A stretch of DNA of 64,000 nucleotides from Escherichia coli (GTDB taxonomy: Bacteria; Pseudomonadota; Gammaproteobacteria; Enterobacterales; Enterobacteriaceae): assembly GCF_044324785.1 (NCBI RefSeq), contig NZ_CP172127.1; one strand, given 5' to 3'. Of this stretch, positions 38,001 to 41,000 are shown in pieces (the first letter of the stretch is position 1; each line of letters starts with the position of its first letter). A program made the position numbers.

Positions 38001-41000
38001 CTATTCGATGAGCGTCAACCTGTGGCCGCAGTGGTTCCCGATGGAAGCGCGACATCTTTATTACGAAGCCAGCGCGATGATTATCGGTCTGATCAATCTC
38101 GGTCATATGCTGGAAGCGCGCGCACGTCAGCGTTCTTCAAAGGCGCTGGAGAAATTACTCGATTTAACCCCACCGACGGCGCGCCTGGTCACCGACGAAG
38201 GTGAAAAAAACGTGCCGCTGGCAGATGTTCAGCCAGGTATGTTACTGCGCCTGACGACCGGCGACCGTGTGCCGGTAGATGGTGAGATTACCCAGGGCGA
38301 AGCGTGGCTGGATGAAGCGATGCTGACGGGCGAACCTATCCCGCAGCAAAAAGGCGAAGGCGATAGCGTCCATGCCGGGACAGTGGTACAGGACGGCAGT
38401 GTGCTGTTTCGTGCCAGTGCGGTCGGCAGCCATACTACGCTGTCACGGATCATTCGCATGGTGCGACAGGCCCAGAGCAGCAAGCCAGAAATCGGTCAAC
38501 TGGCGGATAAAATCTCCGCCGTGTTTGTGCCGGTAGTGGTAGTCATTGCGCTGATCAGTGCGGCAATCTGGTATTTCTTTGGTCCGGCACCGCAGATTGT
38601 CTATACCCTGGTGATTGCCACCACGGTGCTGATTATCGCCTGTCCGTGTGCGCTGGGACTGGCGACGCCGATGTCGATTATTTCGGGCGTCGGGCGGGCG
38701 GCTGAGTTTGGTGTGCTGGTGCGGGACGCCGACGCGCTGCAACGCGCCAGTACGCTCGACACCGTGGTGTTCGATAAAACCGGGACGCTGACCGAAGGGA
38801 AGCCGCAGGTTGTCGCAGTAAAAACATTTGCTGATGTTGATGAAGCGCAAGCATTGCGTCTGGCGGCGGCGCTGGAGCAAGGTTCCAGCCACCCGCTGGC
38901 ACGGGCGATCCTCGATAAAGCAGGTGATATGCAGCTACCGCAGGTCAACGGTTTCCGCACATTGCGCGGGCTGGGTGTGAGCGGTGAAGCTGAAGGTCAT
39001 GCGGTATTGCTGGGCAATCAGGCGCTGTTAAATGACCAGCAAGTTGATACTAAAGCGATTGAGGCAGATATTTCAGCTCAGGCATCGCAAGGGGCAACGC
39101 CTGTGCTGCTGGCGGTTGACGGGAAAGCGGTGGCCTTGCTGGCAGTACGCGATCCGTTGCGTAGTGATAGCGTGGCGGCGCTGCAACGTCTGCATAAAGC
39201 GGGATATCGTCTGGTGATGTTGACCGGGGATAACCCAACCACCGCCAATGCGATCGCCAAAGAAGCAGGGATTGATGAGGTGATCGCCGGGGTGCTGCCG
39301 GACGGTAAAGCCGAAGCGATCAAACGTCTGCAAAGTGAAGGACGTCAGGTGGCAATGGTGGGCGACGGCATTAACGACGCGCCAGCGCTGGCCCAGGCGG
39401 ATGTCGGTATTGCGATGGGTGGCGGCAGTGATGTTGCCATTGAAACCGCGGCGATTACCCTGATGCGCCATAGCCTGATGGGTGTTGCAGATGCGCTCGC
39501 GATTTCCCGCGCAACGCTGCGCAATATGAAGCAGAACCTGCTCGGTGCGTTTATCTACAACAGCATTGGTATTCCGGTCGCCGCCGGTATTTTGTGGCCG
39601 TTCACTGGAACACTGCTTAACCCGGTGGTTGCCGGAGCGGCAATGGCGCTCTCGTCGATTACCGTAGTGAGTAACGCCAACCGGTTGCTGCGGTTTAAAC
39701 CGAAGGAATGATTGGTATTTACTTAATGCGTTTGTGAGATCCAGTTCTTGTTGCGCTCCTTTTATGAGTAATGCCATATAAAGTGACTGGCGCAGGGAGC
39801 GCGCAGGGGGCGGCCAATCGCCGCCGCCCCCTGCACCCCCGGGCTCTGGCGAACAAAATCGCCGCTGCGCGGTACCCTCAGCTTATCCCTTGCGGCTACC
39901 GGGTCGGGCGCGAGGTAACATCCCTGTAAAACGCGCCCTCAGCCCACATCCATGTGGGCTGCCCCGGCCTTCAGGGAACGCCTCGGCGATTTTGACGCCA
40001 CCAACACCGGTGCAGTCTTTCGTTTCAAAGCAAAAACAATTTTTCGATCATATTTAAGCTACCACTGAACAAGCCTCATAACTCCATTTGCGCCATCCCT
40101 CCCCGCGCGCTAGCATGATATTTCACAAAGGGAGGTCGTATGGATCTGTTGTACCGGGTAAAAACGCTTTGGGCCGCGCTGCGCGGTAATCATTACACCT
40201 GGCCTGCTATCGATATCTCTCTTCCCGGCAATCGCCATTTTCATCTGATCGGCAGTATACATATGGGTAGCCACGATATGGCTCCCCTGCCCACCCGTTT
40301 GCTCAAAAAGCTCAAAAACGCCGATGCGCTGATCGTCGAGGCGGATGTTTCCACCAGCGATACGCCTTTTGTTAATTTGCCTGCCTGCGAGGCGCTGGAA
40401 GAGCGCATTAGCGAGGAGCAACTCCAAAACCTGCAGCACATTAGCCAGGAGATGGGCATTTCTCCGTCGCTCTTTTCTACCCAACCGCTGTGGCAAATCG
40501 CGATGGTTCTTCAGGCGACGCAGGCACAAAAACTGGGGCTGCGGGCAGAATACGGTATCGATTACCAGCTATTGCAGGCGGCGAAGCAACAACATAAACC
40601 CGTGATTGAACTGGAAGGGGCTGAAAACCAGATTGCCATGTTGCTCCAGCTCCCTGACAAAGGACTGGCGCTGCTGGACGATACGCTGACCCACTGGCAT
40701 ACCAACGCACGGTTGCTGCAACAAATGATGAGCTGGTGGCTGAATGCACCTCCGCAAAATAATGATATAACGCTGCCCAATACGTTCAGTCAGTCGCTGT
40801 ACGATGTGCTGATGCATCAGCGAAATCTCGCCTGGCGGGATAAATTACGCGCCATGCCGCCGGGGCGATATGTGGTCGCGGTCGGTGCACTACACCTGTA
40901 TGGAGAAGGGAATTTGCCGCAAATGTTGCGCTAAAAAAATGGCCAATATCGCTATTGGCCCGTCAAAGAGGAATTTCATTTTTTTATTATTATGCCGTCA

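What the first reader, a model, noticed from the sequence alone, without database searches (positions are those of the whole stretch)
39780..40010. Unidentified GC-rich multi-palindromic element between copA and ybaP, where I expected ybaQ
A roughly 230-bp non-coding stretch with at least two perfect 10-12-bp stem hairpins and further dyads occupies the copA-ybaP interval. It is unlike REP/BIME units elsewhere in the window and unlike any E. coli repeat family I can name. To my recollection K-12 carries the small HTH regulator gene ybaQ here, and no ORF of that size exists in this interval. It could be a MITE-like element, a structured RNA or the scar of a replacement event.
Basis: partly seen in the sequence, partly recalled or inferred. 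Interest (0 to 1): 0.5.

Follow-up and report, generated by a model that had tools for sequence, protein, structure and literature searches.

The report
Known TRIP1e/RRS repeat replacing ybaQ
The GC-rich, hairpin-filled stretch between copA and ybaP is a copy of a known E. coli repeat (TRIP1e, of the same family as the "replication risk sequences" that make the replication machinery leave short single-stranded gaps), and it sits where strain K-12 carries the ybaQ antitoxin gene, so it is a documented strain-specific variant and not a new element.

Summary
Window 39780-40010 is non-coding, GC-rich and holds perfect 12-bp and 10-bp hairpins. It folds far better than shuffles (z about -6). ybaQ, which K-12 has at this position, is absent.

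The element is not unidentified. It is the TRIP1e repeat (Li et al. 2024), described as 38 bp after the copA stop and 124 bp before the ybaP start. TRIP1 (Rudd 1999) is the same family as the RRS, "replication risk sequences" (Pham et al. 2023, 2024). The window copy is 97.7% identical to K-12 RRS-lysO and RRS-dusC. It carries their exact G-quadruplex 20-mer on the minus strand, which by map orientation is the lagging-strand template.

The most likely function is a DNA-level trigger of post-replication gaps. It is also a substrate for recombination between repeat copies.

The roughly 350-bp cassette occurs in about 350 of 5426 complete E. coli genomes, including strain 042. At this site it alternates with higB-ybaQ, ybaQ plus BIME, and a short allele.

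One new lead: the core of the repeat (39855-39994, minus strand) matches the Rfam TwoAYGGAY motif below threshold. A model built only from TRIP1 copies finds a bona fide Aeromonas TwoAYGGAY element (E = 7e-10). The two loops match the CsrA binding consensus.

The parts
37207..39711 (+). copA (context). In this allele its stop codon is TGA, where K-12 has TAA.
   Evidence: It is an 834-aa ORF. It is 98.7% identical to K-12 CopA. The alignment to K-12 diverges inside the stop codon.
39710..40062 (.). Allele-specific cassette of about 350 bp. It replaces K-12's BIME plus ybaQ segment. It consists of a 38-bp left flank, the TRIP1e repeat and a right flank of about 45 bp.
   Evidence: Alignments to K-12, S22EC and AST85 show fixed junctions with different contents between them. 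Each flank is single-copy and each is found in 357 of 5426 genomes.
39746..40020 (.). TRIP1e repeat. The published description corresponds to 39750-40015, 266 bp, GC 0.647.
   Evidence: It is 94.1-94.5% identical to TRIP1a, 93.0% to TRIP1c and 91.9% to TRIP1d over about 271 bp. Its position matches Li et al. 2024, 38 bp after the copA stop and 124 bp before the ybaP start.
39782..40003 (.). Equivalent of the 222-bp RRS (replication risk sequence).
   Evidence: It is 97.7% identical (5 mismatches in 218) to both K-12 RRS-lysO and RRS-dusC. RRS and TRIP1 are the same family according to PMC11194060.
39753..39802 (.). Outer left hairpin (GCGCTCC / GGAGCGC) that encloses an AT-rich loop. The loop differs between TRIP1 types.
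   Evidence: The hairpin appears in the fold predictions. The arms are conserved and the loop is variable in alignment A2.
39803..39834 (.). Perfect 12-bp hairpin (GCAGGGGGCGGC / GCCGCCCCCTGC) with loop CAATCGCC.
   Evidence: This is inverted repeat I3. Enterobacterial relatives keep a hairpin here with different stem sequences and the same GGCGAT loop.
39821..39840 (-). G-quadruplex-forming 20-mer 5'-GGGGGTGCAGGGGGCGGCGG-3', identical to the RRS G4 sequence.
   Evidence: It is an exact match, the only one in the window, with none found in shuffled sequence. The sequence is quoted from PMC11194060. G4Hunter scores 1.84 on the minus strand against 1.40 for the best plus-strand window.
39855..39994 (-). 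TwoAYGGAY-like core domain: a long closing stem around a junction that carries two hairpins with GGA loops.
   Evidence: Rfam RF01731 matches it full length (model positions 1-168) at 31.5 bits, below the gathering score of 43. Model R1 scores it 165.5 bits. Eleven of 44 pairs show compensatory changes among 12 enterobacterial copies.
39854..39869 (.). Closing stem P1, one arm (CAAAATCGCCGCTGCG). It pairs with 39979-39994.
   Evidence: This is inverted repeat I1, 16 nt and 88% complementary. It is paired in all fold predictions.
39979..39994 (.). Closing stem P1, second arm.
39940..39961 (-). Hairpin 1. The minus strand reads CAGCCCACAUGGAUGUGGGCUG, with the loop motif ACAUGGAUGU at 39946-39955.
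   Evidence: This is inverted repeat I6. TRIP1d and other genera change the stem on both sides while the loop stays fixed. The motif matches 9 of 12 positions of the CsrA consensus RUACARGGAUGU, including the ACA and the GGA.
39906..39938 (-). Hairpin 2. The stem is GGGCGCG / CGCGCCC, and the minus-strand loop motif is UUACAGGGAUGU at 39918-39929.
   Evidence: The hairpin appears in the fold predictions. The motif matches 11 of 12 positions of RUACARGGAUGU.
40063..40139 (+). ybaP upstream region, shared by all alleles. It is not part of the element.
   Evidence: It is identical or nearly identical in the window, K-12, S22EC and AST85.
40140..40934 (+). ybaP (context).
   Evidence: It is a 264-aa ORF, 99.2% identical to K-12 YbaP.

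Best explanation
The element is a TRIP1e copy of the E. coli TRIP1/RRS repeat, and it acts at the DNA level.

Proposed mechanism:
- When the replisome unwinds the element, the G-rich strand folds into a G-quadruplex plus long hairpins. That strand is the window's minus strand, which here is the lagging-strand template.
- The fold stops the lagging-strand polymerase, which re-primes elsewhere. This leaves a post-replication single-stranded gap of up to about 2 kb that SSB and RecA load onto.
- In window coordinates the fork travels from ybaP towards copA. The polymerase would therefore meet the G4 end of the element first, and the gap would lie over the element and the ybaP-chiX-ybaK side.

The copy is also a stretch of about 270 bp of homology with the other TRIP1 copies, so large rearrangements can form by recombination between them.

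It reached this site as part of a cassette of about 350 bp that is one of several alternative occupants of the copA-ybaP interval.

Shown here: the sequence identity, the exact G4 motif, the structure, the orientation and the distribution.
Shown by others on the K-12 copies and on engineered ectopic copies: gap formation.
Inferred: that this particular copy does the same.
For: Identity:
- The position and length match the published TRIP1e.
- It is 94% identical to TRIP1a and 97.7% identical to both K-12 RRS over the 222-bp unit.
- It holds the exact RRS G4 20-mer, once, on the minus strand, with a G4Hunter score of 1.84.

Structure:
- Single-stranded DNA folding gives z = -6.5.
- Stems covary across Escherichia, Pseudescherichia, Enterobacter and Citrobacter.

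Strand specificity:
- The consensus fold is -43.3 kcal/mol on the G4 strand and -32.8 kcal/mol on the complement.
- Eleven cells are C-A/A-C mismatches on the complement, which read as G-U on the G4 strand. Only two go the other way.

Orientation:
- The window is the reverse of K-12.
- In the complete genome of strain 7/2 the locus lies at 0.528 Mb with K-12-like gene order.
- The element has the same orientation as RRS-lysO, which is on the same replichore.

Function in the literature:
- RRS trigger RecA/SSB-bound lagging-strand gaps wherever they are placed in that orientation.
- TRIP1e takes part in rearrangements with TRIP1a and TRIP1c.
Against: - No experiment has addressed this copy or any TRIP1e strain.
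- The position does not fit the RRS model of a pair about 650 kb either side of dif. This site is about 0.4 Mb origin-proximal of RRS-lysO.
- Other full-length copies, at alx-sstT and at putP, have the G4 strand on the leading-strand template. Orientation is therefore not a fixed rule of the family.
- The G4 is only a two-tetrad candidate, and its G-runs are also locked in a perfect 12-bp hairpin.
- Relatives in Enterobacter, Citrobacter and Pseudescherichia have G4Hunter scores of 1.08 or less. The G4 may therefore not be the conserved feature. This sample was collected by the loop motifs, so the comparison is biased.
- GC skew in the window is only weakly negative and supports the orientation call only weakly.
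Confidence: 0.8

Rival explanations
1. The element works as RNA. Its minus-strand transcript would be a TwoAYGGAY-type structured RNA whose two GGA hairpin loops bind a CsrA dimer, either as a sponge or as a cis-regulatory element.
For: - RF01731 matches all four full-length TRIP1 types end to end on this strand, at 30.6-36.6 bits.
- Model R1, built only from TRIP1 copies, finds the Aeromonas media element at 54.1 bits, E = 7e-10. That element passes the TwoAYGGAY gathering score at 55.2 bits.
- The loops UUACAGGGAUGU and CCACAUGGAUGU match 11 of 12 and 9 of 12 positions of the CsrA SELEX consensus RUACARGGAUGU, with the GGA in the loops.
- TwoAYGGAY has been proposed to bind CsrA.
- Single-sided changes keep G-U pairing on this strand.
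- The GGA strand folds better than its complement in 95 of 116 family instances.
Against: - Both flanking genes are on the plus strand, so read-through RNA would carry UCC loops, not GGA loops.
- No promoter-like site is found in the interval on either strand.
- Orientation relative to neighbouring genes differs between TRIP1 types.
- The supplementary table of Potts et al. 2017 marks dusC and ybjE with "No" in all four evidence columns and scores both NS (no significant change).
- The Rfam gathering score is not reached.
- G-T wobble also stabilises single-stranded DNA, so the strand asymmetry does not separate RNA from single-stranded DNA.
Confidence: 0.1
2. It is a MITE-like mobile element that inserted between copA and ybaP and displaced ybaQ.
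For: - It shows presence/absence polymorphism: about 350 of 5426 genomes carry it.
- The family is multi-copy.
- The wider loop-motif family is multi-copy in many Gammaproteobacteria and often lies at contig ends.
Against: - The repeat ends have no terminal inverted repeats and no target-site duplication.
- The repeat always travels with its own unique 38-bp and roughly 45-bp flanks, and no allele has those flanks without it.
- Each TRIP1 type sits at one fixed locus.
- Copy number is only 1 to 8 per genome.
- The junctions are shared with three other alleles, which fits cassette exchange by flanking homology.
Confidence: 0.07
3. It serves mainly as a 3' structure for the copA mRNA, as a stabiliser or a transcription barrier before ybaP. 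In that role it would take the place of K-12's BIME.
For: - It lies 38 bp after the copA stop with no predicted terminator in between.
- The plus-strand sequence also folds strongly, z = -5.9.
- K-12 has a three-REP BIME at the same place.
Against: - No intrinsic-terminator-like site is found.
- Other TRIP1 copies lie in varied positions relative to genes.
- The selection seen on structure favours the opposite strand.
- This role would not explain why the family is conserved.
Confidence: 0.1

Closest known systems
TRIP1e repeat (Li et al. 2024, Genes 15:236, PMC10888264); TRIP1 family of Rudd 1999
   Same: It has the same locus, the same offsets from copA and ybaP, the same length of about 265 bp, the same GC content and the same double-Y fold. 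It is 94% identical to TRIP1a.
   Different: Nothing of substance differs. That paper gives no function. It found TRIP1e in 232 of 6725 genomes, while here the flanks are in 357 of 5426 complete genomes.
RRS-lysO and RRS-dusC replication risk sequences (Pham et al. 2023, PMC10287960; 2024, PMC11194060; Kusi-Appauh et al. 2026 preprint)
   Same: It is 97.7% identical over 222 bp, carries the exact G4 20-mer, and has the G4 strand on the lagging-strand template.
   Different: It is not one of the pair that flanks Ter about 650 kb from dif. It lies at about 0.5 Mb on the K-12 map and is a natural extra copy, comparable to the engineered ectopic RRS. Its gap-forming activity has not been tested.
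TwoAYGGAY RNA motif (Rfam RF01731; Weinberg et al. 2010)
   Same: It has two adjacent hairpins with AUGGAU and AGGGAU loops inside a long closing stem. The covariance model matches it full length on the same strand. A reciprocal model links it to an Aeromonas member.
   Different: Its scores of 30.6-36.6 bits are below the gathering score of 43. The second loop has G where the motif name has Y, although Weinberg's own alignment contains ACAGGGACGU members. TRIP1 also has an extra hairpin that carries the G4. The published family is regarded as an RNA.
BIME/REP elements
   Same: Both are intergenic, GC-rich, palindromic and repeated. K-12 has one at this very site.
   Different: There is no sequence similarity. 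TRIP1 is about 270 bp in a few copies, whereas REP units are about 35 bp in hundreds of copies. The naRNA4/REP-type Rfam matches lie elsewhere in the window.
CsrB/RsmZ-type CsrA-sequestering sRNAs
   Same: Both have GGA motifs in hairpin loops that fit RUACARGGAUGU. The loop-pattern scan also picked up multi-hairpin loci that look like Csr-type sRNAs.
   Different: This element has only two or three sites, no promoter or terminator, no evidence of transcription, and no evidence of CsrA binding near the K-12 copies in the Potts et al. supplementary table.

Membership tests
TRIP1 repeat, type e | High sequence identity to TRIP1a over about 265 bp (published value 94%). | tested here: met
   Identity is 94.1-94.5% over 271 bp to the K-12 and O103 TRIP1a copies.
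TRIP1 repeat, type e | Location 38 bp downstream of the copA stop and 124 bp upstream of the ybaP start. | tested here: met
   The copA stop ends at 39711 and ybaP starts at 40140. The repeat at 39750-40015 fits both offsets.
TRIP1 repeat, type e | GC content of 62-65% and a stable double-Y predicted fold. | tested here: met
   GC is 0.647 over 39750-40015. The fold shows two multi-branch domains, with RNA ensemble energy of -147 kcal/mol against the published -149.6.
RRS (replication risk sequence) | A 222-bp unit nearly identical to RRS-lysO and RRS-dusC. | tested here: met
   Identity is 97.7% to both.
RRS (replication risk sequence) | The G4-forming sequence GGGGGTGCAGGGGGCGGCGG on one strand only. 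| tested here: met
   There is an exact match at 39821-39840 on the minus strand. G4Hunter gives 1.84 on the minus strand and 1.40 on the plus strand.
RRS (replication risk sequence) | The G4 strand is the lagging-strand template. | tested here: met
   This is inferred from orientation. The element is oriented like RRS-lysO on the same replichore, and strain 7/2 has K-12-like order at 0.528 Mb. GC skew gives only weak support.
RRS (replication risk sequence) | Member of a pair placed symmetrically about 650 kb from dif, flanking the Ter macrodomain. | tested here: not met
   The locus corresponds to K-12 0.51 Mb, about 0.4 Mb origin-proximal of RRS-lysO at 0.915 Mb. It is an extra copy.
RRS (replication risk sequence) | Triggers RecA/SSB-bound post-replication gaps on the lagging strand. 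| not testable with these tools
   This needs ssGap-seq or a single-molecule replication assay. It has been shown only for the K-12 copies and for engineered ectopic copies.
TwoAYGGAY RNA motif (RF01731) | Covariance-model score at or above the Rfam gathering score of 43 bits. | tested here: not met
   The window scores 31.5 bits. Other TRIP1 types score 30.6-36.6 bits.
TwoAYGGAY RNA motif (RF01731) | Two terminal loops with the sequence AYGGAY. | tested here: inconclusive
   Loop 1, AUGGAU, fits. Loop 2, AGGGAU, has G at the Y position. The published alignment itself includes ACAGGGACGU and AUCAGGGAUGA members.
TwoAYGGAY RNA motif (RF01731) | A closing P1 stem around the two hairpins, often long. 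| tested here: met
   The 39854-39869/39979-39994 arms and a further closing stem appear in every fold. The definition is quoted.
TwoAYGGAY RNA motif (RF01731) | Reciprocal similarity to accepted members. | tested here: met
   Model R1, built from 12 enterobacterial TRIP1 domains only, hits Aeromonas media L072 at 54.1 bits, E = 7e-10, full length. That element scores 55.2 bits with RF01731. Caveat: L072 was collected by the two loop motifs, which supply part of the score. Other loci with the same motifs score only 16-39 bits.
MITE | Terminal inverted repeats and a target-site duplication. | tested here: not met
   No inverted repeat joins the repeat ends, and no direct repeat flanks the repeat or the cassette.
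REP/BIME | REP consensus units. | tested here: not met
   K-12's REP units at this site do not align with the element. The naRNA4 matches lie elsewhere in the window.
CsrA-binding RNA | GGA in hairpin loops fitting RUACARGGAUGU, with two sites in one RNA. | tested here: met
   On the minus strand the two loops match 11 of 12 and 9 of 12 positions, and their starts are 28 nt apart.
CsrA-binding RNA | The GGA-bearing strand is transcribed and bound by CsrA in vivo. | not testable with these tools
   There are no expression data. The flanking genes are on the other strand. The K-12 neighbours dusC and ybjE are marked "No" in all four evidence columns of the Potts et al. 2017 supplementary table.

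The most novel reading that the evidence does not exclude
TRIP1/RRS elements may be the enterobacterial branch of the TwoAYGGAY class. That class is a multi-copy structured repeat found across Gammaproteobacteria and, according to Weinberg et al., in Clostridia. Its constant feature is a pair of hairpins with CsrA-consensus GGA loops inside a long, freely covarying stem, not the G-quadruplex.

If this is so, one of two things follows:
- The 2010 "RNA motif" is really a DNA element that triggers replication gaps in many bacteria.
- Or RRS function depends on the two-hairpin core (or on an RNA or CsrA interaction) and not on the G4.

I put homology itself at about 0.7. The probability given below is for the functional consequence.
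Probability: 0.3. Interest if true: 0.7.

Novelty: already known. Interest (0 to 1): 0.3.

Why it matters
The finding itself closes as a known element, and its annotation can simply be transferred: TRIP1e, of the RRS family.

It still has some value for three reasons.
- TRIP1e strains (phylogroup-D-type strains such as 042, from my own knowledge of that strain) are natural carriers of an extra RRS in the active orientation. It lies far from the Ter-flanking pair. Some of these genomes hold five places that match the 140-bp core. This is a ready-made test of the "two RRS flanking Ter" model and of how many programmed gaps a chromosome tolerates.
- The site shows a toxin-antitoxin remnant (higB-ybaQ, or orphan ybaQ) and a structural DNA repeat as alternative cassettes between the same junctions.
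- The link to TwoAYGGAY, if it holds, joins two literatures that do not cite each other. None of the 12 papers that mention TwoAYGGAY is an RRS or TRIP1 paper. It also suggests a direct experiment: mutate the loops, or the G4, in the existing gap assay.

Tried and rejected
- **Other copies in the window.** None was found by blastn or by model R1.
- **Protein coding.** ORFs 39771-39929 (+), 39890-40057 (+) and 39719-39856 (-) were rejected. The ATG at 39771 aligns with AAG in TRIP1a, the substitutions between copies are paired stem changes, and GC-rich palindromes produce such ORFs on both strands.
- **RSA, BoxC and ERIC.** I considered these from memory. The literature search led to TRIP1/RRS instead. 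I could not obtain the RSA consensus, so RSA was not formally compared.
- **Promoter and terminator scan.** Nothing was found in 39600-40250.
- **Rfam at gathering thresholds.** Nothing was found on the element.
- **Empty-site allele or donor flanks.** Both flanks occur only together with the repeat.
- **Replication-strand bias across the wider loop-motif family, using flanking GC skew.** No bias was seen: 36 positive, 50 negative, p = 0.16. The proxy is noisy.
- **One consensus structure for 63 non-enterobacterial members.** RNAalifold kept only the loop-closing pairs because the outer stems differ in length. I therefore built no model from that set.
- **CsrA CLIP evidence.** None was found for dusC or ybjE in the Potts et al. 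supplementary table.
- **Whether loops are more conserved than the G4 among enterobacterial relatives.** I do not claim this, because those relatives were retrieved by the loop pattern.
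Full report
**1. What is there.** The window is E. coli in the reverse of K-12 orientation.
- copA is at 37207-39711 (+), ybaP at 40140-40934 (+), and ChiX/sroB at 40933-41016 (-).
  - a perfect 12-bp stem at 39803-39814/39823-39834;
  - a perfect 10-nt dyad at 39940-39949/39952-39961;
  - 16-nt arms at 39854-39869/39979-39994.
- As single-stranded DNA, 39746-40020 folds at -82.1 kcal/mol on the minus strand (z = -6.5) and -77.5 kcal/mol on the plus strand (z = -5.9). As minus-strand RNA, z = -5.25. No shuffle folded as well.
- GC is 0.685 over 39782-40003, against 0.55 for the window.

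**2. ybaQ.** K-12 has ybaQ (b0483) plus a three-REP BIME between ybaP and copA, in a 794-bp interval.
- The window is unrelated to K-12 from inside the copA stop codon (TAA in K-12, TGA here) to about 40062. After that, the ybaP upstream region is again nearly identical.

**3. Identification.** The interval is 100% identical in many complete E. coli genomes, and 346 of 5426 hold at least 80% of it.
- The central 251 bp is a repeat present in 5425 of 5426 genomes, at 1 to 8 places with a median of 3.
- Other copies lie between aqpZ and lysO, yohP and dusC, alx and sstT, and putP and efeU.
- A literature search found that this is the TRIP1 family (Rudd 1999). Li et al. 2024 describe a type "TRIP1e" as 265 bp, 94% identical to TRIP1a, 38 bp downstream of the copA stop and 124 bp upstream of the ybaP start, present in 232 of 6725 genomes. 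The window corresponds to 39750-40015 and is 94.1-94.5% identical to TRIP1a.
- Pham et al. state that their RRS (replication risk sequences) near lysO and dusC are TRIP1.
- Over the 222-bp RRS unit (window 39782-40003) the window copy is 97.7% identical to both K-12 RRS.
- It carries their G4 sequence GGGGGTGCAGGGGGCGGCGG exactly, once, at 39821-39840 on the minus strand. G4Hunter gives 1.84 on that strand and 1.40 on the other.

**4. How it most likely works.** The published work shows the following:
- The G4 strand of RRS blocks Pol I, II and IV in vitro and impedes Pol III.
- With the G4 strand as lagging-strand template, RRS produce single-stranded gaps of up to about 2 kb bound by RecA and SSB, at the native sites and at three engineered ectopic sites.
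- In vitro, a gap forms essentially every time a replisome meets the element.
- Removing or inverting both RRS changes global supercoiling.

For the window copy I can show only sequence and orientation.
- It has the same orientation as RRS-lysO, which is on the same replichore.
- In the complete genome of strain 7/2 the locus sits at 0.528 Mb with K-12-like gene order.
- The G4 strand should therefore be the lagging-strand template. The weakly negative plus-strand GC skew agrees with this but is not strong.
- I infer that this copy is a natural extra RRS. The fork would come from the ybaP side, and the gap would lie over the element and ybaP-chiX-ybaK.
- The copy is in direct orientation with TRIP1a. 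The TRIP1a/1e junctions reported by Li et al. (ybaP-aqpZ and copA-ybjE) are the ones expected from recombination between direct repeats.

**5. The locus.** At least four alleles share the same two junctions:
- higB(RelE/ParE)-ybaQ, 869 bp (strain S22EC);
- orphan ybaQ plus BIME, 794 bp (K-12);
- a 310-bp allele with BIME and a ybaQ 3' remnant (strain AST85);
- the TRIP1e cassette, 428 bp.

ybaQ is present in 4845 of 5426 genomes. The 38-bp and roughly 45-bp sequences that flank TRIP1e inside the cassette are single-copy, and each is present in 357 genomes, among them E. coli 042. No allele has these flanks without the repeat. The repeat ends carry no terminal inverted repeats or target duplication. 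This looks like cassette exchange through the conserved flanks, not transposition. Which state is ancestral is not resolved.

**6. A link to the TwoAYGGAY motif.**
- A permissive Rfam scan gave a full-length but sub-threshold match of 39856-39995 (minus strand) to TwoAYGGAY (RF01731): 31.5 bits against a gathering score of 43. TRIP1a, c and d gave 30.6-36.6 bits on the same strand.
- The motif is defined by two terminal loops with AYGGAY inside an often long P1 stem. It is reported from gut metagenomes, Gammaproteobacteria and Clostridia.
- The window has ACAUGGAUGU and ACAGGGAUGU loops on two adjacent hairpins inside a long closing stem.
They came from Vibrio, Psychromonas, Rheinheimera, Shewanella, Marinobacter, Marinobacterium, Marinomonas, Halomonas, Aeromonas, Acinetobacter, Xanthomonas, Pseudoxanthomonas, Morganella, Enterobacter, Citrobacter, Pseudescherichia and E. 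albertii. Many genomes had several copies, and the long outer stems differed in sequence but stayed complementary.
- About 190 chance matches would be expected over the whole collection. A few hits do look like chance or like Csr-type sRNAs.
- The pairs that close each loop were not required by the pattern, yet they covary strongly. Columns 32/41 are paired in 63 of 63 sequences, with five pair types. Columns 31/42 are paired in 62 of 63.
- Psychromonas (68.4 bits) and Aeromonas media (55.2 bits) pass the Rfam gathering score.
- A covariance model built only from 12 enterobacterial TRIP1 domains finds that same Aeromonas element full length at 54.1 bits, E = 7e-10, and a Halomonas element at 38.9 bits. 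Other loci with the same loops score 16-30 bits. The similarity therefore goes beyond the loops.
- I conclude that the TRIP1/RRS core is probably a diverged member of the TwoAYGGAY class. I do not file it as a member, because the curated threshold is not met.
- None of the 12 papers in the library that mention TwoAYGGAY is an RRS or TRIP1 paper.

**7. RNA or DNA?**
- The two loops fit the CsrA SELEX consensus RUACARGGAUGU at 11 of 12 and 9 of 12 positions, with the ACA and GGA kept. TwoAYGGAY has been proposed to bind CsrA.
- Structure is better preserved on the G4/GGA strand. The consensus energy is -43.3 kcal/mol against -32.8 kcal/mol. Eleven alignment cells are C-A/A-C mismatches on the complement, which read as G-U on this strand, against two the other way. 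In the wider family the GGA strand folds better in 95 of 116 instances. This shows strand specificity, but it fits a folded single-stranded DNA template as well as an RNA.
- Evidence against an RNA role for this copy:
  - Both neighbours are on the plus strand.
  - No promoter-like site is found.
  - Orientation relative to genes varies between TRIP1 types.
  - The Potts et al. supplementary table marks dusC and ybjE with "No" in all four evidence columns.
- Evidence against a simple G4-on-lagging-strand rule:
  - TRIP1d and the putP copy have the G4 strand on the leading-strand template.
  - Relatives in other genera have G4Hunter scores of 1.08 or less. That sample was collected by the loop motifs, so it is biased.
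  - Flanking GC skew shows no orientation bias across the wider family.

**8. Verdict.**
- The element is real and strongly structured, and it is already described as TRIP1e/RRS.
- Novelty: already known.
- Interest is modest. The residual value lies in the natural extra RRS copy and in the possible TwoAYGGAY connection.

Noticed in passing
L134:1375-1680 (E. coli strain 405, putP-efeU); K-12 L130:2856-2997: 1215 of 5426 complete genomes have a full-length TRIP1 at putP-efeU, whereas K-12's "TRIP1b" is the internally deleted 146-bp form. The strain 405 copy is decayed: it has an 11-bp deletion in the left hairpin, an altered second loop and an altered G4 20-mer. TRIP1e carriers such as strain 7/2 have five places that match the 140-bp core.
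   Followed up: partly
window 12234-32921 (-), 33024-34379 (-), 10068-12230 (-): There is a 6895-aa ORF which, by comparison with strain 7/2, is a BapA-related adhesin gene (siiEA). Next to it are a TolC-family ORF, intact here but frameshifted in strain 7/2, and a 720-aa ORF. This accounts for the GC of 0.60-0.62 over 12-32 kb. K-12 has no such island beside ybaT.
   Followed up: partly
window about 46700-46800, compared with L133:27052-28400: Strain 7/2 has an IS1397 copy between ybaL and gsk that the window lacks. The dnaX frameshift element is offset by 1433 bp between the two.
   Followed up: no
window 40933-41016 (-), 5132-5209 (+), 46696-46773 (-), 54696-54760 (-): Rfam matches at gathering score are ChiX/sroB (its end abuts the ybaP stop), two naRNA4 (REP-type) elements and the DnaX frameshift element. 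All are expected for this region.
   Followed up: no
L131:1169-1848 (strain S22EC) and L132:1930-2239 (strain AST85): The copA-ybaP interval has other alleles. One carries an intact RelE/ParE-family toxin gene upstream of ybaQ, so K-12's ybaQ is an orphan antitoxin. Another is a 310-bp allele with BIME and only a 3' remnant of ybaQ.
   Followed up: partly
L078:3298-3513 (Pseudescherichia vulneris): One TRIP1-like copy carries an insertion of about 76 nt inside the core domain. The insertion adds another GGA hairpin (CCCCAGGGATGGGG).
   Followed up: no
L047:1030-1132, L108:2895-2992, L116 and L117: The loop-pattern scan also hit loci with three or more tandem GGA hairpins. These look like Csr/Rsm-type sRNA genes and not like TwoAYGGAY repeats.
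   Followed up: no
L015, L016 (Psychromonas), L044, L045 (Marinobacterium), L028 (Xanthomonas), L107, L119: A second conserved hairpin module (GGTTACTTTTCTTT...AAAGAAAAGTAAC) lies just downstream of many TwoAYGGAY copies in distant genera. This suggests a larger composite repeat. It is also visible in Weinberg's alignment flanks.
   Followed up: no
H60 (a 243-kb E. coli plasmid) and 10-12 plasmid places: A few plasmids carry short matches (62 bp) to the left hairpin part of TRIP1.
   Followed up: no
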